Program-made: the position numbers and the translations under genes
Assembly: GCA_951406725.2 (NCBI GenBank)
Contig: OX597823.1
Span: forward strand, 22,320,001 to 22,384,000
Reading direction: 5' to 3'
Length of the DNA: 64,000 bases
Source of the DNA: Octopus vulgaris
Taxonomy: Eukaryota
Notes under the pieces: model-generated
Database searches by the model: none
What the model was told of the DNA's origin: nothing
The model's input: the letters and a program-made list of their open reading frames with translations, nothing else
In this document: positions 21,341 through 58,032 of the stretch, piece by piece
Layout of the letters: the number at the start of each line of letters is the position of its first letter
Numbering within the stretch: position 1 is the first letter of the stretch

Positions 21341-21395
<55 letters not shown>

Positions 21396-21482
21396 AAAAA
21401 TTTTTTTAAAAATGCAGAATGCTCAAATGAAATAAAATTTTAATAAAATGAGAAAATGATAAAATATATAAATATATATATT

Positions 21483-21523
21483 TATTCAACCGGTTTTCGT
21501 CAATGTATGACTTGTCAAGAATA
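21483..21523 (-). ncRNA. minimal type I hammerhead-like motif (U3-A8 variant) near the PLE 3' end
   Basis: tattc-TTGACAA-gtca(tacat)tgac-GAAA-accgg-TT-gaata. Confidence 0.6.
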
Positions 21524-22161
21524 TTTATGTTTTAAGAAGTTTTTTTGAAAATTAGAAAGGGGAAAAAAAGAAAATTGCAATGTTTTTTGTAAAAGAATAA
21601 TGATAAAAATGTACAAAAATTAAAAAATAAGTTCTCCGATACATTGTGAGTTCGTTGTGTATCTTGAGTTTTATGGTTGTTTACCAAAAAGTTACCTTGA
21701 GGTGTTAAGATCCAAAGGGATTAAGAGCATGTGATGTGTTGTGTTGTTGAATACAGCATGTTGCAGGACAGGAAGTAGTAGTAATTGTGGTCCTGGTTCT
21801 TCAGTTCCTGTGTTGTGAGTAAGGGGAGAAAACTCTTTTGAGTTCTTCAATAAAACCCAAATTATAAAACTATCATTTTAGCTTCATTTGCATTATCTTT
21901 TTTATATATAATTGCTTGTTAACTTAACTTTCAGATTTTAACACTTTATTTATATTATTTTCTAATAATATAAAACTGCATAGACAATTGCATTTCAAAT
22001 TGTCATATCATTCTATAATAAAAATGATAGTAGTAACAACAACAATAGTGAAAATGATATTTAAAGAATATAAGTTTTAGCTTGAAGTGGTGAATGCATG
22101 GTATCTTTATATATTTGTGTTAGTCCATCCATGAAGAGTGAGGTAGAGAAAGGAAGTTTGA

Positions 22162-24318
22162 TCAACGAGGAGTTTGCATATTAAGTTGTGTTTGGAATTT
22201 TTCAATAAAGAGATTCTCCTTGTTAATTCTCTCCTGTGTGGTGATCCCGTCTTTACATTGGTAGAAGGGGAATATATAGAATTTGGGGTTTAAGTCTTTG
22301 GCACATGAGTCTAAGTGGTCACTCAGTGGAATTTGTCGGTATTCCGGGAGATTTATTTGTTCTTTATGCACCGTTACTCGTTTACGTAACGGGAGACTCG
22401 TTTGTCCCACATAATTATGTTGGCAACCAGCGCATGTGAGAACGTAGATAAGGTTCTCGGAGGAACAGGAGAAGTTAGTCTTGATTTTAAACTTCGTACC
22501 TTGTTTGAAGGTAAATTCAGAGCCTTCAAGTAGAAAGGGGCAGGTACCACAGTTTGAGCGTGCACATTTTTTTACTGTTGGGGGTGGATGTGGTGTGTGA
22601 AGTTTGGCATTTGTCAAGAGTTTTTTTAAAGATTTGTGTTGCCTTTTGCATTTGAGGATTTTGTGTGTATTTATAATGTTTTTCATTTTTGGGTCTGTTG
22701 ACAGTAGACTGAGGTTTTGTATGATTGTGGTGTATGCTTCGATATTTTTGGGGTTGTGGGTGGAAATGTATGGAAGTATTTTGAGGTTGTGTGTGGTGTT
22801 AGGTTGGGTGGTTTTCAGTGTAGTGTTGTCTAGTTCTTTGGCGCGTTTTATTCCATACTCTATAAGGGTGGAGGGATATTGACGTTGTAATAGTGTTTTT
22901 TTGAGGTCTTGAAGGCGTATTTCTCGTGTTTTTGGATCCGAGACAATGGTGCATACCCTTTTAGCTAAATTGAAAGGGATATTTGTCTTGGTGTGTTTTG
23001 GGTGGCATGAACTAAAGAGGAGGTATTGTTGTGAGTCTGTAGGTTTGTGGTAGATGTCTGTTATGATTTGGTTTTTAGGTGTTTTTATAATTAGGAGATC
23101 AAGGAATGGGAGATGATGTTTGCTAAATTCCATAGTGAATTGGATGTTGGGATGTATGTTGTTTAGTATGGTTTTGAATTCCAGGAGTTTATCATAAGGT
23201 TCTTTCCATATGATGAAACAATCATCTAAATACCTTTTCCAGTTTTCCATTAGGTAGGTGTGGAAAACATGTCCAAATTTCTGGCTTGATATTTCATAGA
23301 GTGACAGTTCGAAGTAACCCATTATGAGGTTCGCAAGGACTGGTGCAGCCTTGGTACCCATCGCAATGCCACATTTTTGACGGTAGTGTGTGTCGTCGAA
23401 GAGAAAAAAATTGTTTGTCAGAATGAACTTAAGAGATTCTGTAATAAAAGACTTGTTAATGCGGTCAGGGAATGTCTCTGGGTGTTTTTCTAGCCAGAAG
23501 TCAATTGCCTCTATACCATACTCATGTGGAATGTTGGTGTAGAGGTTGATGACATCAAAGGATACCAGGAGTGCCCCCTCGTTAACTGTTTTCGGGAGGT
23601 GTTTGAGCATGTCCAGATCATCCCTAATGAAACTTTTGATGTGGGTAAGGAAAGGTTTCAAAAGGATGTCTAGGAAGTTACTCAGGCGGTGTGTTTCACA
23701 GGAGGTACCCGCCACGATGGGCCTTAGTTTTAGGTCCTCCGGTGCTTTGATGTTGATGTGGATGTCAGTGGAGAGTTTGCAGGCTTCGGTGATGTATTTG
23801 TTTTTATGGATTTTAGGAAGGCCATAAAAAAGGCTGGGCTTGCATTTGAAAATGGTGATATAATCCCTTTCTTTTTCTGTGAGTCCCTGGCCGTGTTGGC
23901 GTATGAGTGTGGTGAGGTTTCTGATTGTTTTTTGCTGTTTGTAGTTGTTAATAACCTCATAGAAAATGCTATTGTTAAGCATGGAGAACACTAGGTGTTT
24001 ATAAAATTCCGTGTCCATAAGGACCACAGCACTCCCTTTGTCCGCTTCTTTGATGGTGAGGTTTTTATCCAGTTGTATGTCACGTAGGTTTTCCCATTCT
24101 TCCTTACTGAAATTGGATTTTACCTTGGTTTTGCTTGGGGTAAAGGGGAGACTCTGGATGTGTTTACAGAAATCGTCCAGTGTTTTATTTCTCCCTTTTG
24201 GTGGTAGGAAGTTGCTTTTATTTCTGATCAATGAGTCGTCCCCATTGTTGATATCTGTCAAAGCTTCTGTTAGGCGAAGTTTTCTGCAGAATTCAGAAAC
24301 GTCATCCTTGACCTCCCT
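22162..24318 (-). CDS. PLE polyprotein: RT + Cys-rich linker + GIY-YIG endonuclease (5'-truncated, otherwise open)
   Basis: ADKG..VVLM, FYGLPKIHK, LRPIVA, SFDVINLYTNIP, QKCGIAMG, RYLDDCF, FLDL, C-x4-C-x2-C linker, NLIYVLTC..C...YVGQT...R...H. The first ~14 aa of the 732 aa track ORF come from the junction. Confidence 0.92.
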   Translation of the reverse strand, partial: REVKDDVSEFCRKLRLTEALTDINNGDDSLIRNKSNFLPPKGRNKTLDDFCKHIQSLPFTPSKTKVKSNFSKEEWENLRDIQLDKNLTIKEADKGSAVVLMDTEFYKHLVFSMLNNSIFYEVINNYKQQKTIRNLTTLIRQHGQGLTEKERDYITIFKCKPSLFYGLPKIHKNKYITEACKLSTDIHINIKAPEDLKLRPIVAGTSCETHRLSNFLDILLKPFLTHIKSFIRDDLDMLKHLPKTVNEGALLVSFDVINLYTNIPHEYGIEAIDFWLEKHPETFPDRINKSFITESLKFILTNNFFLFDDTHYRQKCGIAMGTKAAPVLANLIMGYFELSLYEISSQKFGHVFHTYLMENWKRYLDDCFIIWKEPYDKLLEFKTILNNIHPNIQFTMEFSKHHLPFLDLLIIKTPKNQIITDIYHKPTDSQQYLLFSSCHPKHTKTNIPFNLAKRVCTIVSDPKTREIRLQDLKKTLLQRQYPSTLIEYGIKRAKELDNTTLKTTQPNTTHNLKILPYISTHNPKNIEAYTTIIQNLSLLSTDPKMKNIINTHKILKCKRQHKSLKKLLTNAKLHTPHPPPTVKKCARSNCGTCPFLLEGSEFTFKQGTKFKIKTNFSCSSENLIYVLTCAGCQHNYVGQTSLPLRKRVTVHKEQINLPEYRQIPLSDHLDSCAKDLNPKFYIFPFYQCKDGITTQERINKENLFIEKFQTQLNMQTPR

Positions 24319-25889
24319 TAAAACTAAGGCCCATCGTGGCGGGTACCTCCTGTGAAACACACCGCCTGAGTAACTTCCTAGACATCCTTTTGAAACCTTT
24401 CCTTACCCACATCAAAAGTTTCATTAGGGATGATCTGGACATGCTCAAACACCTCCCGAAAACAGTTAACGAGGGGGCACTCCTGGTATCCTTTGATGTC
24501 ATCAACCTCTACACCAACATTCCACATGAGTATGGTATAGAGGCAATTGACTTCTGGCTAGAAAAACACCCAGAGACATTCCCTGACCGCATTAACAAGT
24601 CTTTTATTACAGAATCTCTTAAGTTCATTCTGACAAACAATTTTTTTCTGTTCGACGACACACACTACCGTCAAAAATGTGGCATTGCGATGGGTACCAA
24701 GGCTGCACCAGTCCTTGCGAACCTCATAATGGGTTACTTCGAACTGTCACTCTATGAAATATCAAGCCAGAAATTTGGACATGTTTTCCACACCTACCTA
24801 ATGGAAAACTGGAAAAGGTATTTAGATGATTGTTTCATCATATGGAAAGAACCTTATGATAAACTCCTGGAATTCAAAACCATACTAAACAACATACATC
24901 CCAACATCCAATTCACTATGGAATTTAGCAAACATCATCTCCCATTCCTTGATCTCCTAATTATAAAAACACCTAAAAACCAAATCATAACAGACATCTA
25001 CCACAAACCTACAGACTCACAACAATACCTCCTCTTTAGTTCATGCCACCCAAAACACACCAAGACAAATATCCCTTTCAATTTAGCTAAAAGGGTATGC
25101 ACCATTGTCTCGGATCCAAAAACACGAGAAATACGCCTTCAAGACCTCAAAAAAACACTATTACAACGTCAATATCCCTCCACCCTTATAGAGTATGGAA
25201 TAAAACGCGCCAAAGAACTAGACAACACTACACTGAAAACCACCCAACCTAACACCACACACAACCTCAAAATACTTCCATACATTTCCACCCACAACCC
25301 CAAAAATATCGAAGCATACACCACAATCATACAAAACCTCAGTCTACTGTCAACAGACCCAAAAATGAAAAACATTATAAATACACACAAAATCCTCAAA
25401 TGCAAAAGGCAACACAAATCTTTAAAAAAACTCTTGACAAATGCCAAACTTCACACACCACATCCACCCCCAACAGTAAAAAAATGTGCACGCTCAAACT
25501 GTGGTACCTGCCCCTTTCTACTTGAAGGCTCTGAATTTACCTTCAAACAAGGTACGAAGTTTAAAATCAAGACTAACTTCTCCTGTTCCTCCGAGAACCT
25601 TATCTACGTTCTCACATGCGCTGGTTGCCAACATAATTATGTGGGACAAACGAGTCTCCCGTTACGTAAACGAGTAACGGTGCATAAAGAACAAATAAAT
25701 CTCCCGGAATACCGACAAATTCCACTGAGTGACCACTTAGACTCATGTGCCAAAGACTTAAACCCCAAATTCTATATATTCCCCTTCTACCAATGTAAAG
25801 ACGGGATCACCACACAGGAGAGAATTAACAAGGAGAATCTCTTTATTGAAAAATTCCAAACACAACTTAATATGCAAACTCCTCGTTGA
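24319..25889 (+). CDS. second, more 5'-truncated copy of the same PLE RT/GIY-YIG ORF
   Basis: protein identical to the C-terminal ~520 aa of the minus-strand ORF. Confidence 0.92.
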
Positions 25890-26526
25890 TCAAACTTCCT
25901 TTCTCTACCTCACTCTTCATGGATGGACTAACACAAATATATAAAGATACCATGCATTCACCACTTCAAGCTAAAACTTATATTCTTTAAATATCATTTT
26001 CACTATTGTTGTTGTTACTACTATCATTTTTATTATAGATGATATGACAATTTGAAATGCAATTGTCTATGCAGTTTTATATTATTAGAAAATAATATAA
26101 ATAAAGTGTTAAAATCTGAAAGTTAAGTTAACAAGCAATTATATATAAAAAAGATAATGCAAATGAAGCTAAAATGATAGTTTTATAATTTGGGTTTTAT
26201 TGAAGAACTCAAAAGAGTTTTCTCCCCTTACTCACAACACAGGAACTGAAGAACCAGGACCACAATTACTACTACTTCCTGTCCTGCAACATGCTGTATT
26301 CAACAACACAACACATCACATGCTCTTAATCCCTTTGGATCTTAACACCTCAAGGTAACTTTTTGGTAAACAACCATAAAACTCAAGATACACAACGAAC
26401 TCACAATGTATCGGAGAACTTATTTTTTAATTTTTGTACATTTTTATCATTATTCTTTTACAAAAAACATTGCAATTTTCTTTTTTTCCCCTTTCTAATT
26501 TTCAAAAAAACTTCTTAAAACATAAA

Positions 26527-26567
26527 TATTCTTGACAAGTCATACATTGACGAAAACCGGTTGAATA
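26527..26567 (+). ncRNA. minimal type I hammerhead-like motif (U3-A8 variant), mirror copy
   Basis: same sequence as 21483-21523 in the right arm. Confidence 0.6.
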
Positions 26568-26706
26568 AATATATATATTTATATATTTTATCATTTTCTC
26601 ATTTTATTAAAATTTTATTTCATTTGAGCATTCTGCATTTTTAAAAAAATTTTTCCTTACTTATCATTTCTCCACGTGCGGTCAACACAACCCCACCATT
26701 TATTGA

Positions 26707-26754
<48 letters not shown>

Positions 26755-41364: not shown

Positions 41365-41645
41365 TAAAAAATTAACAGAATGAGATAAAAAACATCCAAG
41401 GCTATGAAAGTTTTCAGAACATTTATAAAGAGAAGGTCTTAAAGCTGTTTCCGGGATATTTTATATATCCCTTCATCAGAGACGGTGCGAGAAAATGGTT
41501 AAGCAATAGTTAATCATTTTTTCGCACCGTCTCTGATGAAGAGACATACAAAATATCCCGGAAACAGCTGTAAGTCCTTCTTTTTATAAATGTTCTGAAA
41601 CCTTTCACAGCCCTGGATTTTTATCTCATTCTGTTAATTTTACAT
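41365..41645. mobile_element. PLE-like foldback element carrying two opposed hammerhead motifs (41436-41483 minus, 41529-41576 plus)
   Basis: ~135 bp diverged arms; gtct-CTGATGA-a-gggata..tatccc-g-GAAA-cagct(t/g)-TA-ag(a/t)c. Confidence 0.8.
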
Positions 41646-43947: not shown

Positions 43948-44019
<72 letters not shown>

Positions 44020-44149
44020 GCTGCTTTCTCGTACACGAGTAAATTCATTGCTAGAGAATCATGGACACGATCCCTCTGTGAATCCATTTATATTTTCTGT
44101 AAACCGCTTAATTGAGCTAATTCGAAGCCAAACAGTGACCTAATACATG

Positions 44150-44340
44150 GCTTCCTTATGGTAGACATGAAAGTATGAAAGTATATGGACGACATGAAAG
44201 TATATGCTGAAAATATGCACAATACGAAGTGCCTTGACCGAGATATGGTATTCGCGAATGATATAAAACTTCATTTAGACCACAATAAATATGCGCACTT
44301 GATTGCAAAATGGGGGGAATACCATATGCAAGTCTAGCAA
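44150..44340 (+). mobile_element. degenerate RT remnant of an RLE-type LINE
   Basis: tatatggacgacatgaaagtatatgct = YMDDMKVYA. Confidence 0.4.
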
Positions 44341-45098
44341 CATTTCTACCTCTGGTTTCACTTCCTACGAGGAATGCTACAGGAACTGAGGGTTGACTCA
44401 ATATATATTCTGCGATAGAAAACGTAACAAGTAACGTAACCAGTAACCACAATGTTTTTGATGCATCAGTAAATCACATCGACATTTGAGCTACTGGGTT
44501 GAACACGTGTTATTGATGTTAAAACCCCAATACTATTAATCACACCAAACATTGCCGTAATACTACTCATAGTAACTGCCTGTAATTAAAGGAAGGAAGA
44601 TAGCTCAATATCAGTTTAAAGGACCTTTGAATATTGCATCATAACTCTTCGACTTAAAGCGCCAAAGTAAAAGCGCACTCAGGAAATCAATCTGTATATA
44701 TGAGCGCAAGAAAGATGTATTAGTTCTCACTTTGAAAGATATGCTTTTGGTATCGATGAAAAGGAAATAATTATATATCATCTGGTACATAAAATGAGAG
44801 AGGGTTGTAATCAATACAGACCTTGTTAAATTTGCACTTAAAATGTAATCCACATCATAAGGAATTATCTGAAAATGTCATTACTATTTTCTTATAAGAT
44901 AGTTCTGAAGATATAAAAGTATTCACAGTAAAATGAAGAACCCATCATTAAAAAAAAAGATAGAAGAAAGAATACAATAGAAAGTAGACACAACTGACCA
45001 AGTAATGATCTGGGTTTGGGAAAAGAAAGTGAGGCTAGCAATAATATAAAATCAGTTGCCCAGCATAATGTTAAAGGTAAGTAAAAAGGAACGTATTA

Positions 45099-45343
45099 CA
45101 TGGTGTTCAAAAAATCTCTCCACAGTGAATTTTTTTTCATCCTGACTCTCTAAGATGTATTTCGAAACATGTGTAGAAGAGTCAACTTATGTATTGAAAA
45201 TGAAAGACGACACTTTCAACACCTCTTATAAAGTTTTTAAACTCTTGTAAAGTCTTATATATTCTTTTTTAGTCTTAAACCATCCTATAAACATTCATTT
45301 TGCAATAAAATACTTACTGCGGAGAGACTTGTTGAACACCCTG
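45099..45343. mobile_element. Tc1/mariner-type MITE
   Basis: TA|CATGGTGTTCAAAAAATCTCTCCACAGT ... ACTGCGGAGAGACTTGTTGAACACCCTG|TA. Confidence 0.8.
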
Positions 45344-46544
45344 TATTTGAACTAATGAAAAATCTACAGGTATAACTGCCACACTGTAATTTCAGATTTG
45401 AACCTATGCTTATTGATACATTTAGTTACTTCACTATCCCAGTACCAAATGTGACACTCTGATTATTAGAATATCAAAAAGAATAGCTAATTAGGAAATT
45501 ATAATTACAAGCTATTGATAGAAGACTCACGGTATTATAAATTGTTATATCATAACAATTCACGTGAGTCAAGAGAACAACTGACCTTGTGTTTTATTGA
45601 GAAAGAACGTAGCTCTATAATATACATGCTGCAGATGATCATGATATTTGGGATGTAAGAAATCTGAAATTGTTTTTTTTATTCTACAGAGTGAATGCTT
45701 AAGCAAAGCATGGCAAAAATACACAACGCCTGCTTCTTCCTCACCATCAAAACCTTTCTTTTTTATTGTTATGCCACCGAACCGGTAGCCGGTCAACATA
45801 AACTCAAAAACTCTAATGAGGTGCAGAAAACACACACACACACACGTACATACACAGGTTCGCACACACATACACACATAGTACATTCACACACACAAGT
45901 ACACATATATACATACATACATACATACATACATACATACATACATACATACATACATACATACATACATACATACGCTCACATATACATACAGAAATTC
46001 TAAACCTCAAAAGCTTAATATCTTTAACGCACATACGTCATATCTTGTTCTATGTTATCGAAGATGATACTCAGGATTGGAGTATAGGTCTGGTTCCTCT
46101 TGCTAAGTCTGGTGGTTGTTGATAAGGCCTATTCGGACTAGGAATCCACTCCTGCATGTAGGGTACGTATGAGAATGTCGGTGCTTGAATTATACGATGC
46201 TCGAGATTCGTGTACTGCACGATTATTCTTAGCTGTATGAGCACTTTCACATCAAACCTTTTGGGCGTCCTTGTGAATTAGTCTGCTGTAGTCGAGTTGG
46301 CTTCGGGCAAGCAGCTCTCTGTAGTCAGCCAAAGTGCTGAGGGTTCTTAGTAGCACTTTTAGACACTGTTTGGATCTCGTCAATTGTCCCTTAGATTGTC
46401 TGCAATGTTGGCTTACTGCTTTACCTCAGAACCAAGGATCCTGTTTTGCATGTGGTTGTACATCCTGCGCATCCATTAACAGGACTGCAATCAACATGCA
46501 TCCATACATTCAAACGTACATACATACATACATACATACATACA

Positions 46545-46578
<34 letters not shown>

Positions 46579-47924
46579 CATACATACGCTCACATATACA
46601 TACAGAAATTCTAAACCTTAAAAGCTTAATATCTTTAACGCACATACGTCATATCAGCAGCTAATGTAATCCACAGCTCCTTTATAGACGATCTATTGGT
46701 CAATACCAGAAATTGTTACAATTCTGAGAAAAATCAAGATTTTGGAACATTTTCTGTTGATGTGGAGAAGGAATTTGGCAAAAAGAAATAATTATGTATA
46801 TCAGCTGAATGCAGGAAGGTTGTTTCTCAAGCCATATAATCTATCAAAAGTCTGGTTATTACTTATGTTCGATACAACGAATGCTACAAACCTTGGTTGA
46901 AATAAGATTTATCCAACAAAGTCGTTTTGAACAAAGACCAAAATATATTAAACCAGACAGATATGATAGTTAGAGTTTTCCTCTTAGAAGATACTATACT
47001 ATAATCCATTTTGCAGCACCAGTACTGTTGCTTATATTTGCAGTACATGACTTCAAAATTGAGGAAGTCCGCTCAATAAATAGTAAATTTGCAAGATCGT
47101 GACATAGGCTGCAAAATTTCACAGAAATGATAATTAGAACGGAAGAAAAATGACTGTAGTTAAGTTCGGAGATCTTTTGAGTATTATTCAGACATCATCA
47201 GCTAAATAAAGTCACCAACATTACATACATCAACTCAGTTCCCAAAAGTGAAGTGAAAGCTATACTACCCGTTTGTAGTAAATGTCCCCAGAATCACTTA
47301 ATTCCTATCGACCTCTCATGTGAATTACAGGATTAGAATACCTCAACCAGGCCTAAAAAGAGAACACTCAACCTTCCACAAAAAATATTACTTTCCACGT
47401 AAATTAGAGGATGAGGATAACCATCCTTTGGAGGCAAATGTAGAGACTAGTTCTCTTATTGAATACATTCATTAATATCAATATACGGATTATATTGTGG
47501 AACACTTCTATCAAGATTTCCGCTGTGTGTAAATATAACATTCTTGATAAAGTGGTTTGAGATAGAGATAGAGAAAGAAGCCATCTGCAGCGGAAGAAGC
47601 CAGTTGCCCTGCAGATTTGAAAGTTTCTCGTAAAATCAGAAAGGACAATTTTATCGAGCAACTTTTCTGTTTGTAAATTTAAATTGATCTTTATGACTAT
47701 GTGAGCGACAATCTGGAAAAGTTAGTATTTTCAGATAAAGAAAGACAGATCAACGACATTTTACAAATTCAGCGTGTAAGCAGAAAAATAAAAATATGCA
47801 AGACTTCCTAAAAGGTTCCGCAGTTTGATATTTAAACGCCAGAGCTGGAGCGTTGTGCCTTATTACAAACTAGTTTCCTCTCTAGGAAGATTTCAAATAA
47901 CTGAGACAGAAACTTTATACATAC

Positions 47925-47973
<49 letters not shown>

Positions 47974-48180
47974 GATAAATCTCAGAGCGAGTTATAAACA
48001 GTAGCGGTAACACAACGCGATGCATATATGCCATTTGAATATGGCTAACCCAAAAGGGTGGATGCTACTGTAGTTTGTAGCCCCAGGAAGACACCTCCTC
48101 CCGCTGGCTATAGACACACTATCTGTGTCCTGTCAGTATTTGTGAAGGGGAGTCATCCTCCCCGTCTTCAACACATGATA

Positions 48181-48225
48181 CACACGTACCCGAGTTTCAA
48201 GGTGTTTACCTTTCATCAGCGTGTG
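48181..48225 (-). ncRNA. minimal type I hammerhead ribozyme with a canonical core
   Basis: cacacg-CTGATGA-aaggt(aaac)acctt-GAAA-ctcggg-TA-cgtgtg; stems I and II are perfect. Confidence 0.85.
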
Positions 48226-48447
48226 ACAATCATGGTTGTCGACGAGAAGTCAGATTCCTTCACAAATACATATATCTCTGTATCTCCTTTGATTAATTTT
48301 AATCCTTCAGCTAGTTAATGCTTTTGTGGGGCTTGCAATCACCTATATTATTGATTCGTTTATTATCCTTTTTAATTGTTACACGAGATAATAACAGTCA
48401 ATAATATCGTCGCAAATATTTTCTCCTGAATTATATGCTTCGTATTG

Positions 48448-48515
<68 letters not shown>

Positions 48516-48592
48516 TGCAGCGTGGAAGGTGTTTATAAGCCATTTAAGAAACACACAAAAACCGTTAGATTCACTTCAACATTTAAATTTAA

Positions 48593-48643
48593 TTTGTCAA
48601 AATATTTTCGTCGCTTTGAGACCGTGACCTGTTCACTGACAAA
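48593..48643 (-). ncRNA. hammerhead variant with swapped G3-C8 core pair, inside inverted repeat 48512-48682
   Basis: tttgtca-GTGAACA-g-gtcac(..)gcgac-GAAA-atat-TT-tgacaaa. Confidence 0.65.
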
Positions 48644-48728
48644 ACTCCAAATGGCTTATAAACGCCTTTCACACAGCAATTGTTTTCGTTCCAGCACACG
48701 ATCTCAGATCAGCTCACTTGCATAGCAA

Positions 48729-48777
<49 letters not shown>

Positions 48778-48817
48778 TAGTTAGTTAGTTAGTTAGTTAA
48801 TTAGTTAGTTAGTTAGT

Positions 48818-48864
<47 letters not shown>

Positions 48865-48877
48865 CTAGATATAATAT

Positions 48878-48973
48878 TAATTAACAGGAGATGGATTGGT
48901 ATTAAATCTGTATTGGGTACACCATATCTAGTCTCCAATAAAGATGTAATATCAATCTATCTCCTGTTAATTA
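48878..48973. repeat. imperfect hairpin at the edge of a microsatellite-flanked insert
   Basis: taattaacaggagatggattggtatta..tct..attgg / ccaat..agat.taatatcaatctatctcctgttaatta. Confidence 0.8.
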
Positions 48974-49266
48974 GTATTATTACCCTAATTACCACTGCGG
49001 AGTTCCTGAAAGACAATATAACACAAGTTTACTTCGACTGCGGATGACAACAGGTAGCCTAAACTGTGCCGGTACTCTACTCAACATTTAAACACACTAA
49101 TCGACTTATATTTATTAGTCTAACATATTAATTATATGTGTGTGTGTGTATGTGTACACCAGAGTAAGCACATAAATGCGAAACAAGGTGGAAAAAATAG
49201 TACTCGAATACTAGAACGGGAACGTGAAACTCTGAGTAACACGTTTTGTGATATTTTTGTATAAGT

Positions 49267-49316
<50 letters not shown>

Positions 49317-49357
49317 GTATGTTTGCATATATACATATATGTAAATACATCTATTTG

Positions 49358-49414
<57 letters not shown>

Positions 49415-49565
49415 TCTGTATGTGTGTATGCATACGTGGGCACAGGACGTCACGAAACGTGTACAACAAAAAGTACGAAGCACGAGTACATAGAACAACA
49501 TGAATTATTCTTTCGAACAACGAAAGACACAAATGGAAAAAAAAAAACAAGCAACATAAAGAATG

Positions 49566-49626
49566 ACCCTTCATCAGTTGTTGGCTGTTTTTCTTGTCTC
49601 GTATTTCGAGCATTTAACAATATACG
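49566..49626 (-). ncRNA. non-circularly permuted hammerhead motif
   Basis: cgtaT-A-ttgtt / aaat / gctc-GAAA-tacg / 17 nt / aacaa-CTGATGA-a-gggt. Confidence 0.65.
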
Positions 49627-50010
49627 CTTTCGATAAAACAGTGGCTCTAGCAAAGCAAATTAAATAAAATTTGAGATTTTGCAGAGAGTCAAAATTGGTA
49701 ACACAAACAGGACAGTGAAAACGAACAGGAAGGGTTGCTAAGCCTAAACCAGGTTGTGGTGGCGAACGCATAAATCAAACTTGGACAGGAGATAAACATG
49801 AACATGTCTTCCTTGTTCCAGCTACAACGGAGAGAAAGAAAGATGGCCGATGGTCACGTGGGAGTCATGTGAGCAACGGAGGAGGAGGAGCGGGGTCAAA
49901 TAATAAGATAGAGAAGAACGAAAGTGTAAAAAGATCTTAAGAGTGCGCATCAGAATTATTAAGATAAAACTTAGAAGAGGATGCGTGGCATTCAATCATA
50001 TAATAATATA

Positions 50011-50056
<46 letters not shown>

Positions 50057-50409
50057 TGAGAGAGAGCTGTTTATCGAGTGATATATTTGTGTCTGTCCGT
50101 CTGTCTGTCTGCCTCTCTAATATATTTATAATATTGTTATCTTATATTTACATCTAATGCTATCAAGCCATTTATCTTACTATATGTCTGTCTGTCAACT
50201 TGTCATTTTGCACGCTCATATTTTCTTTCAAATATAAAACGGTCTTGTCTATAGAATTGTTGTATAAAACTATATGCATGTTTGTGCGCGTGTATATGTG
50301 TGTGAGTTTGTGTGTGTGTGTGTATCAGTGTATATCTCACTCGTCCACTGTCTGTTGCTTTTATATACGTACTACATACATGTGTATACATATAAGCATA
50401 ATATATATC

Positions 50410-50470
<61 letters not shown>

Positions 50471-50735
50471 GCGCATGTACTTGCATATACTTGTGTGTGT
50501 ATATAAGTACCAATATAATGTTCTTTTGTTCATTTTTACCATCAAGGCCAAGGCCATACTCTATGTATATGGTTTTAAGTATGTGTTGGTGTGAAGACGT
50601 ATATATGTGTGTCTGTGTCTGTGCCTGCATAGTAAAATGGCTGCATACAACAAACTTGAATCACGCCTCCACACCTACGCACTCTTGAGTGGGTGTTCAA
50701 GAATAGTTACTTTTTGCGCTACACACGCACGCACA

Positions 50736-50790
<55 letters not shown>

Positions 50791-51009
50791 TGTCATCCAC
50801 AATGATACTCATTCCGACAAACAGAGATTCAGGCACACATATATACTTTAAAAACGCCCACATATTCTCATACACACATATCCATATACAACACGTAAAC
50901 ATAGTGTTCAAACGTAAACGTATATGGACTCTACAAACTTGCTTTCATACGCACAAAACACATATACAGACAATATATATATAAACGCACGCACGCTCAC
51001 ACACACTCA

Positions 51010-51045
<36 letters not shown>

Positions 51046-51536
51046 TATACACAGACTCACACTCTCACACATACCCATAAAATTCTTATTCGCTGGTCTG
51101 CAAACACACACGCAAACATTCACGCACGCGCGCACACATGTACCCACGCATATACATACATGCACAGCGAAAATTTAATTCCTGCAGAAAATATATTATA
51201 CAACTGTCGTATACATATGTGCGCCGGCGCACGTAGAAGACAATAGTTACAACTTATACAATAGTGATTTTTTTCTGTCAGTGATGACGCGTCTTTGGTA
51301 ACGACTATGGCTGTCATATTCGCTTATCAGGGCTAAATACATATACAAACTATCATATTCACACTACCTGCCATACATCGCATTAGCGCACATCTTTTCA
51401 TATGATATATTAATTCGATCCACGCATCACACACACACGCACACATATACACACATATATGTATATGTATATATATACATATATATATATATATGTATAT
51501 ACATATATATCTATATACATGTATATACATATATAA

Positions 51537-51591
<55 letters not shown>

Positions 51592-51680
51592 TAAACAGTA
51601 AAAATAATTACAGACATGGACAAGAACATGAAACGCCACAGAGACGACACAAGGACCACAGGACGGGACATTCGAAGCCC

Positions 51681-51742
51681 TCAGTCATCAGTCAAGAACC
51701 AGATCATCTTAGCAATTTCGGCTGATTAATCTTGAGATTGCT
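51681..51742 (-). ncRNA. non-circularly permuted hammerhead motif, copy 1
   Basis: agcaaT-C-tcaaga / ttaa / tcagcc-GAAA-ttgct / 13 nt / tcttga-CTGATGA-ctga. Confidence 0.65.
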
Positions 51743-52460
51743 CCGATATGGGCAGCCCGCCAAGGGAAATCTAAGCCAAGTGCATTAGATCCCCTGGAAG
51801 AAAGCTTCGAATGTATACAACACGAGGACGGAAAACGAACGAAGTACACGAACAAAAATACAGAATACGTGACAACAATAAGAATACAAAAACGTAAAAA
51901 CAATAACGGTAAAAATAAAGTATAAAAAATAAACAACAAAACAAAACCAGGACGTAGGACAAGGGTCTTTCGACAGGACGAATTGAGTATGGGGCTGGCT
52001 TATGAAGTTGTGCCTAATGGCCACAGGGAGACGAACAAGTACGTGTTGCTTCAGCGGCTGCTGGAACGAAAAGAGCGCTCAACAGCGGCTAGCGGTCACG
52101 TGAGAACAAAAGACAAGAGAAAGGGACAGATGAAAAGAGAGAGAAGGTGGACGAGGGAGGAGAAGAAAGAGACAGATCGAGGGGGCTGGAGGTGAGAGAG
52201 ATAGAGAAACGTAGAAGGGGGGAAGACGGATGGAGAGGGAAAGAAAGGAGGGGGAATAAGGGGGAGAGAGAGAGAGAGAGAAAGAAAGATTAAGAGTCGT
52301 ATCAATGCTTGAGAAAAAATATACTTATCGTATAAGGACAATTGTGGATACGTAGCCGCCGATTATATAGGTAAACAGTAAAAATAATTACAGACATGGA
52401 CAAGAACATGAAACGCCACAGAGACGACACAAGGACCACAGGACGGGACATTCGAAGCCC

Positions 52461-52522
52461 TCAGTCATCAGTCAAGAACCAGATCATCTTAGCAATTTCG
52501 GCTGATTAATCTTGAGATTGCT
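52461..52522 (-). ncRNA. non-circularly permuted hammerhead motif, copy 2
   Basis: identical to 51681-51742. Confidence 0.65.
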
Positions 52523-53207
52523 CCGATATGGGCAGCCTGCCAAGGGAAATCTAAGCCAAGTGCATTAGATCCCCTGGAAGAAAGCTTCGAATGTATACAA
52601 CACGAGGACGGAAAACGAACGAAGTACACGAACAAAAATACAGAATACGTGACAACAATAAGAATACAAAAACGTAAAAACAATAACGGTAAAAATAAAG
52701 TATAAAAAATAAACAACAAAACAAAACCAGGACGTAGGACAAGGGTCTTTCGACAGGACGAATTGAGTATGGGGCTGGCTTATGAAGTTGTGCCTAATGG
52801 CCACAGGGAGACGAACAAGTACGTGTTGCTTCAGCGGCTGCTGGAACGAAAAGAGCGCTCAACAGCGGCTAGCGGTCACGTGAGAACAAAAGACAAGAGA
52901 AAGGGACAGATGAAAAGAGAGAAGGTGGACGAGGGAGGAGAAGAAAGAGACAGATCGAGGGGGCTGGAGGTGAGAGAGATAGAGAAACGTAGAAGGGGGG
53001 GGGAAGACGGATGGAGAGGGAAAGAAAGGAGGGGGAATAAGGGAGGAGAGAGAGAGAGAGAAAGAAAGATTAAGAGTCGTATCAATGCTTGAGAAAAAAT
53101 ATACTTATCGTATAAGGACAATTGTGGATACGTAGCCGCCGATTATATAGGTAAACAGTATATATATATATATACACACATACATGCATACATACATATA
53201 TATATAT

Positions 53208-54561
53208 ATATATGTGTATATTGGCAGGGCTGGCCTGCTAGGTAGCCGGCCAGAATGCTAGAAATAGATCATCAACGATCAAACTACAAGGGAAATTCTC
53301 TAGAGGAAGAATTCAGCGAACACCAGAACCAAATTTGGCGGGCAGGACATATGAAAAATTAAATAAAAAACAGACTTAAATGCATACCTCGGTTTCGGTC
53401 TTAACAAAAGAATTACTTGCATAATTCAAGTGTCCGTGACTTCTTCAGCACATTCGGTCCTCGAGATGCAAACTGCAAGACTAACCCCAGCCCTCTGTGT
53501 CAAGACAGACACGTGCTTAGTCCTACTGATTACATCGGGAATAAAATTTCAAATGTCTTGGTTCCGGCGCGCTAAGAGACTCCTGAAGCGAAGGGCTGCA
53601 GTGAATAATTCACTGCGGGTAAAGCTTACTACTAGGGAACGTATTTATTTAAATATTTAAAAATTGAGGGAGATAAATTAATATTAATTTTAATATCAAT
53701 TTAAAACCAGTAGTCCAGCATTCAAAAAATCTGAGGAGTCAGAGAAAATTCAAATATATGTGTATATTGGCAGGGCTGGCCTGCTAGGTAGCCGGCCAGA
53801 ATGCTAGAAATAGATCATCAACGATCAAACTACAAGGGAAATTCTCTAGAGGAAGAATTCAGCGAACACCAGAACCAAATTTGGCGGGCAGGACATATGA
53901 AAAATTAAATAAAAAACAGACTTAAATGCATACCTCGGTTTCGGTCTTAACAAAAGAATTACTTGCATAATTCAAGTGTCCGTGACTTCTTCAGCACAGT
54001 CGGTCCTCGAGATGCAAACCGCAAGACTAACCCCAGCTCTCTGTGTCAAGACAGACACGTGCTTAGTCCTACTGATTACATCGCTTCAGGAGTCTCTTAG
54101 CGCGCCGGAACCAAGACATTTGAAATTTTATTCCCGATGTAATCAGTAGGACTAAGCACGTGTCTGTCTTGACACAGAGAGCTGGGGTTAGTCTTGCGGT
54201 TTGCATCTCGAGGACCGAATGTGCTGAAGAAGTCACGGACACTTGAATTATGCAAGTAATTCTTTTGTTAAGACCGAAACCGAGGTATGCATTTAAGTCT
54301 GTTTTTTATTTAATTTTTCATATGTCCTGCCCGCCAAATTTGGTTCTGGTGTTAGCTGAATTCTTCCTCTAGAGAATTTCCCTTGTAGTTTGATCGTTGA
54401 TGATCTATTTCTAGCTTTCTGGCCGGCTACCTAGCAGGCCAGCCCTTCCAATATACACATATATTTGAATTTTCTCTGACTCCTCAGATTTTTTGAATGC
54501 TGGACTACTGGTTTTAAATTGATATTAAAATTAATATTAATTTATCTCCCTCAATATTTAA

Positions 54562-54567
<6 letters not shown>
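53208..54567. mobile_element. PLE-like non-autonomous insert: direct repeat (period 546 bp) plus an inverted copy, in (TA)n
   Basis: ttggcagggctggcc at 53221 and 53767; 54081-54555 is the reverse complement of the unit; hammerhead-like motif in each copy. Confidence 0.88.
54218..54293 (+). ncRNA. type I hammerhead-like motif with an extended stem II (mirror copies on the minus strand near 53380-53455 and 53926-54001)
   Basis: aatgtg-CTGAAGA-agtc...gacc-GAAA-cc(ga)gg-TA-tgcatt. Confidence 0.55.
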
Positions 54568-54645
<78 letters not shown>

Positions 54646-54851
54646 CTATGTAAGGAATGCATATAAGGAATCCACTCTTGGGATTCAACACACTAGAAAG
54701 AACAGCTAGGTTCTATAACCACAAAATTAAGGATAAAATCCGACAGGAACGAAATGAAAAAATAAAAACATTTTACCATCTAGTTTCCTGGACCAATTGT
54801 TTTCTGAATTTAGTTTAGCAAATAAATAATATTCGCTAGGTGAAATCTTCT

Positions 54852-55166
54852 TCAACAGGTACACCTTAGACGAGTTTCAGGTAAGCCAAACTTTCTGAGC
54901 TTCTCCCTTTCCATTGAGACAACGTGATCTTCAATATCAACCAACCCAGAATTATATAGGTCATTGTTGAATGCTATTTCTCTCTCAGGGAATCTTAATT
55001 GTGCCTGATATTTGTAGTCTTCCGATAAATCATTCTTATATTTGTGCCACAACGCTAATGGATTACTTACTTCACAATTCAGGAAAAGAATTGCAAAAAG
55101 GTCTCTCAAAGAAATAGATACAATTCGTTGTATGTACATAGTTTTTTTGTATGTAGGATCTTCCAT
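54852..55166 (-). pseudogene. Helitron Rep/helicase fragment (inter-domain region)
   Basis: LRDLFAILFLNCEVSNPLALW.KYK..LSED...YN.GL.DIED......L..FGLP. Confidence 0.8.
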
Positions 55167-56130
55167 ACTTTCTTATCTATATGATCGTATATTGAAATTA
55201 GAGAATATTTTTTAGTGGTCTTCACATTTGTATTTATTATTTATTTATATGTTGTAATTGTGTATTATTACTTTCTATATTTTTTTATATGTCTATTGGG
55301 GTGTATTTTGGTTAAAGAATATTATAAAAGTGAAAGGATTTTGTCTATAATTTATTTCGACTGTTTTCCATACTTTTTAAAATCTATATGGTCATATATT
55401 TGCATTACAGAATATTTTTTTAGTCATTTTCACATTTTTCTATTACTTATTTTTATGTTGTAATTGTATATTATTACTTTCTATATTTTTTATATGTGTA
55501 TTGATGAGTATTGTTTAAGTTTTTGTTAGAGAATATATTATAAAAGTGAAAGGATTTTGTCTATTTATTTATTTCGACTGTCCACCTGCGACGATGATTA
55601 AATTGACTAGGAACATAGTGCGCGATGAATATCCAATATCAAATGATCTTAATCTCCATATTTAAATTGCATTAAACTTTGGCAAGCTTACTTTTACCTA
55701 TTCTAAGTTACTTGAAAGGTGATATTCCCTTCCCTCTCTTCGATTTGTTGATACTTTTGTTTACCTACCAATGCGCTGTTTCACTTTGAGGATGCTTATT
55801 TACCAATCCATTATGATATTTCGATTGTTGTCCATTCTTTCATATATGTTTTAGCATTGCCGTTCTGGCCCTTTTTAAACAATCACAAGAAATTTCGCTT
55901 TCATGTAAAACAACTATATTTTATAGTCATTATCTGTAATCTACTCCCAAAACACTCTAGTAGCTCTACTTTGCATCGCGTGCTTTTTCTTGAGATTTCC
56001 GAATGGCAGAAATCATGTCAACTCCCTGCATGAAATCAACATTGGGAAAGTCCTGTCCTAGATCGATTTGCATGGCATAAAACGTGTCATGATCCAAACA
56101 ATTTGGGTTAAAGAAACATAATAAAACAAT

Positions 56131-56530
56131 ATCCTGCAATCAACAGACACATTTGGCCAATCTCAAGCAATCCCGCAATCAACAGATACATTTGACCAAT
56201 ACCAGGCAACAGAAAGATCAACAGACACATTTGGCCAATCCCAGGCAATCCTGCAATCTACAGACACAGTTGGCTAATCCCAGGCAATCCTGCAATCAAC
56301 ACATACATTTGGCCAACTTTGAGCAATTCGGCAATCAACAGATACATTTGACCAATCCCAGGCAATAGAGAGATCAACAGACACATCTGATCAATCCCAG
56401 GCAATCCTGAAATCTACAGACATATTTGGCCAATCCCAGGCAATCCTGCAATCAAAACACACATTTAATCAATCCCAGGCAATCCTGCAATCACCAGACA
56501 CATTTGCCCAATCCCAGGCAAAATCAAAAT
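56131..56530. repeat. 39 bp minisatellite, ~10 diverged copies
   Basis: unit caatcctgcaatcaacagacacatttggccaatcccagg. Confidence 0.9.
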
Positions 56531-56769
56531 CATCAGTCTCCACATTGTGGCTTCATAGCAAAATCCATACCTAAATTGAAATTGCCTTTATGCATCTATC
56601 GCAAATAGATACAGGTTTCTATTTGTCTCGCCTTTAAAAGAAAATCTTTCCTTTAAACACTCATACACCGAAATCGACGGGAGTGACCATTATTGCTTCA
56701 ATCTTCATTGAATTAGAATTAAAACACTCTCGATCATAATAGTGAATTCTCTAGAGATAATTATTTCCA

Positions 56770-56945
56770 CTATAGCTACAAGTGCTTAAATTTGTGGGTG
56801 GTGGGAGCTAGTCTATTAAATCGACCCTCGAGCTCAACAGGTACTCATTTTATTGATTCCGAAAGGATGAAAGACAAAGTTATCTTGGAGGAATTTGAAC
56901 TCAAAAAAGTAAAGACGGAAGAAATGCCGCGAAGCATTTTGTCCT
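56770..56945 (-). mobile_element. family A SINE (old)
   Basis: reverse complement of the core, diverged. Confidence 0.6.
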
Positions 56946-57609
56946 AATGAGAAATTATTGTGAGTGTTTTAATCAAGCACTTGATTTCGTCACTGATTTA
57001 GTCTCGTGAAGCGCAGATGTTTTTGCAAAAGCTCTGTAATACTGTGACGGAGGATTTAGTTTTAGCTGATATTTTGATGAGAAAGAATATAATCCTACAT
57101 TTAGGAAGTAGCTCCTACATTTAGAAGTAGAAATGGAAATATCTTGTGATGTAATCCCAATTTTACTTTTAATTTTCTCTTTATAAAGCCAAAGAGCTTT
57201 TGAGTTCGTCTCAGTTCATTTATAAGAGAGCTTAGGTATTTTAAAATCTTCAATAAAATTTCCGTTAATTTTTTTTTTTGCAGTTGTTTCAAAAACAAAA
57301 TAACAGTGACTCTATTCCCAAGAGCAAGTGATTGTCCGCTTAAAAGAAACTGCTCGGCAATTTCATTGTGCCAAGCTAAAATTACAGTCAAAATCTTATA
57401 TTAGTGTGACAAAAAACATAGATGTAAGATAAGACATTACACGCAGAGCTATATCATTGATCAACCCATATATTTGGAGATTAAGACAAAATGATAGTAC
57501 TTTTAACATAAAGTTGTCTCTACTTGATTTCAAACTTACTTACTAGGATAACATAAGATGGAAGGCACTTTTTGCTTAACCGAAATTATTTTAATATTAG
57601 TGCAGAATA

Positions 57610-58032
57610 AAGCGACGTGCAGGTAAAATCGTTAGCTCACCGGGTAAAATGCTTGGCGGCATTTCGTCCGTCTTTACGTTCTGAGTTCAAATTCCACCGG
57701 GGTCGACTTTGCCTTTCATCATTTTGGGGTCGATAAATTATGTACCAGTGAAACACTGGAGTTGATGTAATAGACTAGTCCCATCCCTGAAAATTTCAGG
57801 CCATGTGTCTTCAGTAGAAAGGATTATTACTGCAGAACAAGGAGGCGAGCTGGAAAAATCGGTAGCACAATGGGTAAATACTTAGCTGCATTTCATCTGT
57901 CTTTACGTTCTGAGTACAAATTCCACCTTTCAGGGTCGATAAAATAAATACCAATTGAGCACTGGGGTCGATGTAATCGACTGTCCCCCTTCCCTGGAAT
58001 TGCTGGCCTTCTGCCAAAGTTTGAAACAATAT
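57610..58032 (+). mobile_element. two adjacent family A SINEs (57610-57827, 57840-58032)
   Basis: tctttacgttctgagt.caaattccacc core twice. Confidence 0.8.

What the first reader, a model, noticed from the sequence alone, without database searches (positions are those of the whole stretch)
49566..49626. A second, sequence-divergent element has the same permuted hammerhead topology with covarying stems
Seen on the minus strand: cguaU-A-uuguu, aaau, gcuc-GAAA-uacg, 17 nt, aacaa-CUGAUGA-a-gggu. It has the same non-canonical strand order and the same 4 nt stem I-to-II linker as 51681-51742. The stem sequences are completely different yet still pair: III cguaU/Auacg, I uuguu/aacaa, II gggu/gcuc with two G-U pairs. 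Two independent instances make chance unlikely and suggest a class of non-autonomous PLE-like retroelements processed by a rearranged ribozyme. Both hosts (49430-49990 and the 780 bp unit) also share a ggtcacgtg motif next to a purine-rich tract.
Basis: partly seen in the sequence, partly recalled or inferred. Interest (0 to 1): 0.85.

Follow-up and report, generated by a model that had tools for sequence, protein, structure and literature searches.

The report
Rewired hammerhead ribozyme of Naiad retroelements
This stretch is one slightly decayed copy of a jumping-gene family whose RNA carries all the catalytic parts of a hammerhead self-cutting RNA in a scrambled order, with one helix supplied from upstream, and it is likely the ribozyme that Naiad-type retroelements were reported to lack, although cutting is untested.

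Summary
The motif is real: intact hammerhead core, blocks in S-G-C order, stems I and III covarying. That order is published (type SGC, Eckert 2023), from metatranscriptomes only. Across 13 lineages the strand before GAAA pairs with a segment upstream of the cleavage block (G10.1-C11.1 in all 13). The strand after CUGANGA closes a separate helix beside a hairpin, so two helices sit between A9 and stem II. The host is a ~580-bp non-coding repeat with TA-type ends (3,974 first-look candidates); a pairing-blind pattern gives 11,201 genomic hits against 751 in the control. The same fold lies 3' of Naiad-type reverse-transcriptase genes in this genome and in 9 of 80 metagenome loci, and, by eye, in published Naiad consensus sequences said to lack canonical hammerheads. 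One locus holds the unopened form with both hairpins inline. Cleavage (predicted after A49621), expression and the mobilising enzyme are not shown. I did not find this architecture in print (9 searches). This scan earlier noted rearranged hammerheads and twister-like RNAs in Penelope-like elements of other genomes.

The parts
49430..50010 (-). Family A host: ~580-bp non-coding interspersed repeat between simple repeats; boundaries approximate
   Evidence: 40 scored of 3,974 candidates, other copies 86-90% identical; no Naiad-protein match in L001-L060
49685..49691 (-). Helix X1, 5' strand (UGACUCU), pairs with the strand after the core
   Evidence: also in the unconstrained fold
49650..49684 (-). 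Inserted hairpin between X1 and stem II (base partly decayed in this copy)
49644..49647 (-). Stem II 5' strand GAGC (G49647 = G10.1), upstream partner of GCUC; fifth pair lost in this copy
49635..49641 (-). Helix T, 5' strand (CUGUUUU), joins the distal ends of stems II and I
49616..49626 (-). Block S: III' CGUAU, H17 = A49621, stem I UUGUU; predicted cut between 49621 and 49620
   Evidence: cut site by analogy with the hammerhead core, untested
49600..49611 (-). Block G: II' GCUC, GAAA, stem III AUACG
49585..49591 (-). Helix T, 3' strand (AAAACAG)
49571..49582 (-). Block C: I' AACAA and core CUGAUGA
49564..49570 (-).
49852..49860 (-). CACGTGACC after a pyrimidine tract; shared with family B, role unknown (E-box-like, label recalled)
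51591..53150 (-). Family B: two head-to-tail 780-bp units of a young (99-100%) non-coding repeat with the same architecture
51668..51814 (-). Family B ribozyme motif, copy 1 (II GGCUG/CAGCC; core 51691-51685; predicted cut after C51736)
52448..52594 (-). Family B ribozyme motif, copy 2 (core 52471-52465; predicted cut after C52516)

Best explanation
This is a slightly decayed copy of a high-copy non-coding repeat whose RNA carries a rewired hammerhead motif, also found 3' of Naiad-type retroelement genes, that is predicted to cut itself after A49621 and likely serves to cut tandem or read-through transcripts into unit-length RNA. The 5'-to-3' order is X1 - hairpin - stem II 5' strand - T - [III' U H I] - short linker - [II' GAAA III] - T' - [I' CUGANGA] - X1'. 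G10.1 therefore comes from an upstream strand, and A9 runs into a different helix. X1, the hairpin, stem II and the core would meet at a four-way junction. Formally it is a circular permutation of the S-G-C cyclic class, with two helices inserted between A9 and G10.1 and the chain opened in the first of them. Shown: core, block order, helices by covariation, copy number, insertion anatomy, position 3' of Naiad-type RT genes. Inferred: folding into the active core; cleavage in cis as a monomer (stem III is 4-7 bp, not the 1-2 bp of dimer-type motifs); retention of the two cut ends by four inter-strand helices (X1, II, T, III), which would favour ligation to a circle; and copying into (TA)n by a Penelope-like RT/endonuclease in trans.
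For: Core letters kept in 27-30 of 30 family-A copies at each fixed position. On a MAFFT alignment of 15 A/C copies, 93.5% of 417 cells pair. Both-side changes occur in 5 of 6 stem I, 4 of 5 stem III, 3 of 5 upstream stem II and 1 of 5 X1 pairs; 0 of 500 shuffles reach the score; slid partners pair 39-47%. In 13 lineages upstream stem II starts with G-C in all 13 and shows 3-4 Watson-Crick types at each further pair (partner chosen as best match). In a partner-blind fold, 6 of 13 lineages leave exactly the complement of II' unpaired between hairpin and T (permutation p = 4e-5 on the 8 with a defined segment). Of the first 30 pairing-blind genomic hits, 20 have an upstream stem II scoring at least 4, and none has an adjacent one. 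Genome: 11,201 hits against 751 in the control. Same strand, 3' of decayed RT in 6 of 20 G000 stretches, plus 3 degenerate. The RT's relatives carry an N-terminal GIY-YIG domain. Metagenome Naiad-like loci: 9 of 80 split form, 2 CSG, 0 antisense, 0 SGC in shuffles. L284 has C-S-G order with two hairpins inline between A9 and G10.1. Published Naiad consensus ends show the split or CSG form by eye.
Against: No cleavage or RNA-end data. Eckert et al. state that known alignments have no insertion over 1-2 nt between CUGAnGA and its stems, and I found no tested precedent for two helices there. The window copy has a 5-bp stem I and a 4-bp stem II. Seven of 13 lineages did not give the clean partner-blind result. 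Single-lineage p-values for stem II are modest: 7 of 21 below 0.05, and the 21 are related. About two thirds of the 80 Naiad-like loci show no CUGANGA in the available 3' region. No intact Naiad was seen in G000 (50 of 11,352 candidates scored), so the driver of young family B is unknown. For one canonical element, hammerhead cleavage was not needed for insertion in vitro and required protein (PMC11167929 passages).
Confidence: 0.72

Rival explanations
1. In family A the motif works as an ordinary type-SGC hammerhead with the reader's adjacent stem II (extra A, GGGU/GCUC); the upstream pairing is an alternative or inhibitory fold.
For: The adjacent helix is 96.7% paired in 15 A/C copies, with one both-side change. 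[quoted passage not shown] Natural stems II can be 1-2 bp (PMC3088659 passages).
Against: Duplex energy is -1.5 to 0 kcal/mol against -3.8 to -6.5 for the upstream partner in A/C copies with an intact stem II. The GGGU strand is taken by X1 in the unconstrained fold. The adjacent helix has 0-2 pairs in B, D, the G000 Naiad and most metagenome loci. None of 30 unselected hits scores 4.
Confidence: 0.1
2. The fold is conserved but is not an autonomous self-cleaver: it cuts only with element protein, or serves mainly as a recognition or promoter-linked structure for the RT complex.
For: A canonical PLE hammerhead cleaved only with protein and was dispensable for insertion in vitro (PMC11167929). 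A four-way junction at A9/G10.1 may strain the core. Many Naiad-like elements have no such core in the region held.
Against: All catalytic letters, the U-H site and G10.1-C11.1 are kept while the helices change completely across distant lineages. A binding role alone would not need that.
Confidence: 0.15
3. Chance co-occurrence of short motifs, amplified passively by a repeat family.
For: Whole-fold z-scores are not significant (-0.7 to -1.2); Rfam gives no match.
Against: No hits in window shuffles. Compensatory changes across families. Sense-strand-only occurrence 3' of related RT genes in unrelated samples. Nested folding programs and Rfam's nested models cannot represent three crossing stems.
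Confidence: 0.01

Closest known systems
Type-SGC and type-CSG hammerhead ribozymes (HRIMA-1; Eckert, Friedrich, Weinberg, Weinberg 2023, PMC10085705; introduction, results, discussion, one methods section and supplement passages read)
   Same: Same core; S-G-C cyclic order; short linker from stem I to stem II; extra helix tying the distal ends of stems I and II.
   Different: There CUGAnGA is directly followed by its stem II strand, and SGC RNAs came from metatranscriptomes, none from genomes of known organisms. Here stem II's 5' strand lies upstream, two helices are inserted at A9/G10.1, and the motif is chromosomal, in thousands of copies, in retroelements.
Naiad clade of Penelope-like elements (Craig, Yushenova, Rodriguez, Arkhipova 2021, PMC8557442; passages and supplement look-ups read)
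   Same: (TA)n targets, 5' truncation, partial tandems; decayed N-terminal-endonuclease elements in G000 carry this fold at their 3' end; the paper flags unexplained 'HHR_core' and 'HHR_half_core' in 10 and 8 entries.
   Different: The paper reports no canonical hammerhead in Naiads. The window element has no ORF, so it is at most a non-autonomous relative.
Minimal type-I hammerheads of canonical PLEs and animal non-LTR retrozymes (Cervera and de la Pena 2014, PMC4209133, passages; Li et al. 2026 preprint 10.64898/2026.07.22.740005, abstract and passages)
   Same: Hammerhead near the 3' end of a PLE or of a tandem non-coding derivative; proposed processing of multimeric RNA.
   Different: Those are circular-permutation type I with a 1-2 bp stem III that needs a dimer. 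This one is pseudoknotted, of the opposite cyclic order, with a 4-7 bp stem III.

Membership tests
Hammerhead ribozyme class | Core CUGANGA, GAAA and U-H site | tested here: met
Hammerhead ribozyme class | Stems I and III anchored on the core, with covariation | tested here: met
   both-side changes in 5 of 6 and 4 of 5 pairs
Hammerhead ribozyme class | Stem II closed by G10.1-C11.1 next to G12 | tested here: met
   13 of 13 lineages, with the upstream strand
Hammerhead ribozyme class | Site-specific self-cleavage after H17 | not testable with these tools
   needs an in vitro assay; only contigs were available
Type-SGC hammerhead (Eckert 2023) | Block order S, G, C | tested here: met
Type-SGC hammerhead (Eckert 2023) | Block C intact: stem II strand within 1-2 nt after CUGAnGA | tested here: not met
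   absent in B, D, Naiad and most metagenome loci; only a weak G-U-rich alternative in A/C
Type-SGC hammerhead (Eckert 2023) | Short stem I-to-II linker and a helix joining the other ends of stems I and II | tested here: met
   linker 1-5 nt in 20 of 21; helix T appears in most constrained folds; T was left out of the pair count
Naiad PLE (autonomous) | ORF with N-terminal GIY-YIG and C-terminal RT | tested here: not met
   no match in family A or B loci; present, decayed, in other G000 elements with the same fold and intact in metagenome loci
Naiad PLE (autonomous) | (TA)n insertion bias, 5' truncation, partial tandems | tested here: met
   B: fixed 3' end before (TA)n in 27 of 30 loci, head-to-tail pieces in 18 of 30 (some loci overlap). 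A: TA-type 3' flank in 15 of the 19 copies where the end anchor was found, tandem pieces in 3 of 30. Not specific: the young canonical PLE also ends in (TA)n
Non-autonomous Naiad derivative | Sequence homology to, and mobilisation by, an autonomous Naiad | tested here: inconclusive
   shared ribozyme architecture only; no intact Naiad among 50 scored candidates; no DNA similarity to the young canonical PLE
Animal non-LTR retrozyme | Type-I hammerhead in each tandem unit | tested here: not met
   the order is S-G-C, not C-G-S
Animal non-LTR retrozyme | Circular unit-length RNA in vivo | not testable with these tools
   no raw reads were offered

The most novel reading that the evidence does not exclude
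A fourth separable block exists in the hammerhead: stem II can be uncoupled from CUGANGA by a two-helix insertion and delivered from upstream. This triple-crossing, four-way-junction ribozyme and its CSG sister form are the ancient self-cleaving RNAs of many Naiad retroelements, and drive a retrozyme-like superfamily of over 10,000 copies in this genome.
Probability: 0.6. Interest if true: 0.9.

Novelty: new variant of a known kind. Interest (0 to 1): 0.85.

Why it matters
It would answer an open point stated in print, that Naiads lack canonical hammerheads yet carry unexplained core fragments. It would give non-circularly permuted hammerheads their first chromosomal, animal and retroelement context. 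It would also overturn the working assumption that CUGAnGA and its stem II strand cannot be separated, so current descriptors and Rfam models miss a family with thousands of genomic copies. Each claim is directly testable with short transcripts. The inline (L284), opened (this element) and plain CSG forms also suggest how such permutations arise in tandem-repeat elements.

Tried and rejected
Rfam: no hammerhead match at E <= 5 in 44000-58000 and none at gathering score in 8 loci. Whole-fold z-scores were uninformative. Within-family covariation in 30 family-A copies showed decay, not compensation. Expression: no RNA holder listed. Laying contigs of 4 runs showed no place where many molecules begin or end. 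One run has loose ends resembling a template-switch primer (recalled), a hint of cDNA that I do not count as evidence. The first metagenome scan with a decayed RT found nothing, and neither did viral contigs. Walking up one Naiad 3' UTR needed several steps because copies are short and old. No single G000 copy was shown with endonuclease, RT and ribozyme together: L192 and L200 have EN then RT but no ribozyme in the stretch fetched. An intact Naiad was not found (stricter first look, 50 scored). The young canonical PLE shares no DNA similarity with A or B. A-versus-B homology is unresolved. The RT tree is the quick one only, and ribozyme labels are scattered over several deep branches; no origin or order of events is claimed. 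Literature searches that found no report of this architecture or of permuted hammerheads in Naiads. The library lacks most subscription papers, and bioRxiv supplements are closed. PMC10162972, PMC7936874 and PMC13725137 (passages) gave no precedent for an insertion at A9/G10.1. PMC13725137 mentions variants 'with additional helices' and cites one reference that I did not identify.

Full report
Observation. A descriptor for all six block orders finds this one site in the 64-kb window and nothing in 40 local dinucleotide shuffles. A scan that asks only for the core and stems I and III finds three sites, 49577, 51691 and 52471, and nothing in 100 shuffles. The 780-bp unit did not pass the first descriptor, because the strand before its GAAA has no adjacent partner after CUGAUGA.

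The host. The element is one copy of a ~580-bp non-coding repeat (family A). A DNA search of the own genome (2.8 Gb) gave 3,974 first-look candidates; the other scored copies are 86-90% identical. The 3' flank is TA-type in 15 of the 19 copies where my end anchor was found, and 3 of 30 have head-to-tail pieces. The neighbouring 780-bp unit (family B; 2,637 candidates, 99-100% identical) has a fixed 3' end before (TA)n in 27 of 30 loci, variable 5' truncation, and tandem pieces in 18 of 30 loci, some overlapping. Neither family matches a Naiad-type protein. A pairing-blind pattern of core words gives 11,201 hits in the genome against 751 for the reversed pattern. Its first hits fall into several families with different stem sequences.

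What is known. Eckert et al. 2023 (PMC10085705) named this block order type SGC and showed cleavage. They assumed that CUGAnGA is directly followed by its stem II strand, and found no SGC RNA in genomes of known organisms. Craig et al. 2021 (PMC8557442; passages; supplement) describe Naiad elements: N-terminal endonuclease, (TA)n targets, no canonical hammerhead, but unexplained core or half-core motifs in 18 entries.

The real architecture. In every family examined, the 4-6 nt before GAAA have a Watson-Crick partner 19-45 nt upstream of the cleavage site. The strand after CUGANGA pairs further upstream (X1), with a hairpin between the two. A further helix (T) joins the distal ends of stems II and I. 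In the window copy these are GAGC 49647-49644, X1 49691-49685 with 49570-49564, the hairpin 49684-49650, and T 49641-49635 with 49591-49585.

Tests of stem II. (a) On a MAFFT alignment of 15 homologous A/C copies, 93.5% of cells pair. Both-side changes occur in 3 of 5 upstream stem II pairs, 5 of 6 stem I, 4 of 5 stem III and 1 of 5 X1. None of 500 shuffles reaches the score, and slid partners pair 39-47%. It stays possible there as an alternative. (b) Over 13 lineages the first pair is G-C in all, and each further pair shows 3-4 Watson-Crick types. The partner was chosen as best match, so that p-value is biased. (c) A fold blind to II' leaves exactly its complement unpaired between hairpin and T in 6 of 13 lineages. 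Five gave no or an empty segment and two a wrong one; permutation p = 4e-5 on the 8 scored. (d) Of the first 30 pairing-blind hits, 20 have an upstream partner scoring at least 4 and none an adjacent one. (e) Per-lineage shuffle p-values are modest, 7 of 21 below 0.05, and the rows are related.

Link to Naiads. A 20-base motif from the published octopus Naiad end has 301 exact matches in the genome and 0 in the control, which also suggests that the genome is an octopus (inference). Walking upstream reached decayed RT frames. Their intact relatives are ~920-aa proteins with GIY-YIG at residues ~55-150 and RT near the C-terminus. In 20 long G000 stretches, the fold lies 3' of RT remnants on the same strand in 6, with 3 more degenerate. 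In 80 metagenome loci of such proteins, 9 have the split form and 2 the plain CSG form, all on the sense strand, with none antisense and no SGC hit in shuffles. Relaxed rules add L215 and L288. About two thirds have no CUGANGA in the 3' region held, and many contigs end early. The split form occurs on several deep branches of a quick RT tree. By eye, published Naiad consensus ends show the split form in three Acropora entries, two Octopus entries, and one entry each in parts 12 and 19. They show plain CSG in five entries of parts 13-16, two named as Nippostrongylus by file order. I saw 55 of 62 CTGATGA, 23 of 23 CTGACGA and 29 of 43 CTGAAGA places, did not search CTGAGGA, and miss cores split by line ends.

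The unopened form. L284 reads I'-CUGAUGA, hairpin, hairpin, stem II 5' strand, T', then blocks S and G. This is C-S-G order with both inserted helices inline, 23 nt between A9 and G10.1. L283 has the same start but is cut off. Opening that circle in the first hairpin gives the window's layout. It is one complete example, but it supports reading X1 and the hairpin as an insertion at A9/G10.1.

How it likely works. Transcription through a tandem unit or terminal repeat yields the motif, which can close stems I and X1 only once the core is made. It would cut after H17, about 190 nt (A) or 145 nt (B) before the 3' end. With a 4-7 bp stem III it should not need a dimer. In a tandem, two cuts would release a unit-length RNA whose ends stay paired through X1, II, T and III, favouring circularisation; copying by a Penelope-like RT would give the head-to-tail insertions in (TA)n. 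This adapts the model of Cervera and de la Pena (PMC4209133) and is inference. Against it, a canonical PLE hammerhead needed protein and was dispensable for insertion in vitro (PMC11167929). The driver is open. Naiads here look dead, yet family B is 99% identical. A canonical C-terminal-endonuclease PLE with at least 25 near-full-length stop-free copies among 60 scored also ends in (TA)n but shares no DNA similarity with A or B. The window copy itself is weakened (5-bp stem I, 4-bp stem II); 14 of 30 A copies and 30 of 30 B loci keep the full motif.

Verdict. A real and well-supported RNA structure that should work like a hammerhead. It belongs to the S-G-C cyclic class, but fails the intact-block-C feature of type SGC, so I file it as a new variant. 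Nine literature searches did not find it (listed under Tried and rejected). Earlier notes of this scan report rearranged or CSG hammerheads and twister-like RNAs in Penelope-like elements of other genomes; none of the summaries mentions a split stem II. Cleavage is the missing experiment.

Noticed in passing
window 21386-26708: Young canonical Penelope-like element (RT then C-terminal GIY-YIG, 746-aa open frame at 22162-24402 minus) with a 100% identical inverted copy, between (TA)n tracts; at least 25 near-full-length stop-free copies in the genome.
   Followed up: partly
window 26524-26565 (+), approximate: That element's 3' end holds a minimal type-I hammerhead-like motif with a U3-A8 core variant and a palindromic stem III, seen in 5 of 6 copies checked by exact pattern; the variant is described in PMC4209133.
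   Followed up: partly
window 53208-54576: A second young repeat, in three 98-99% identical inverted and direct pieces, abuts family B. Each has CUGAAGA followed by two small hairpins, then GAAA, a short stem III and a U-A site in canonical order, but no clear G10.1-C11.1 pair (by eye).
   Followed up: no
L242:2930 and L262:3480: Plain type-CSG hammerhead motifs 3' of Naiad-like RT genes in metagenome contigs; type CSG was described from two sequences with no known context.
   Followed up: partly
L061:1500-2200: A family-B-like element starts right at the 3' end of a truncated Naiad, suggesting a shared target at TA ends.
   Followed up: no
window ~49970 region of family A relatives (L004, L012 and others): The 5' part of family A copies has a GTAAGT splice-donor-like word upstream of the long pyrimidine tract, as expected if a 5' intron is present; untested.
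   Followed up: no
window 41400-41560: An imperfect palindrome carrying CTGATGA on both strands (41479 minus, 41533 plus); no hammerhead stems found.
   Followed up: no
window 56131-56521: 39-bp tandem repeat, 10 copies, 79% matches.
   Followed up: no
PMC8557442 File S5, parts 16-19: Several arthropod Naiad ends have CCCCUGA(C/A)GA without hammerhead stems that I could see; earlier scan notes read similar Naiad motifs as twister-like.
   Followed up: no
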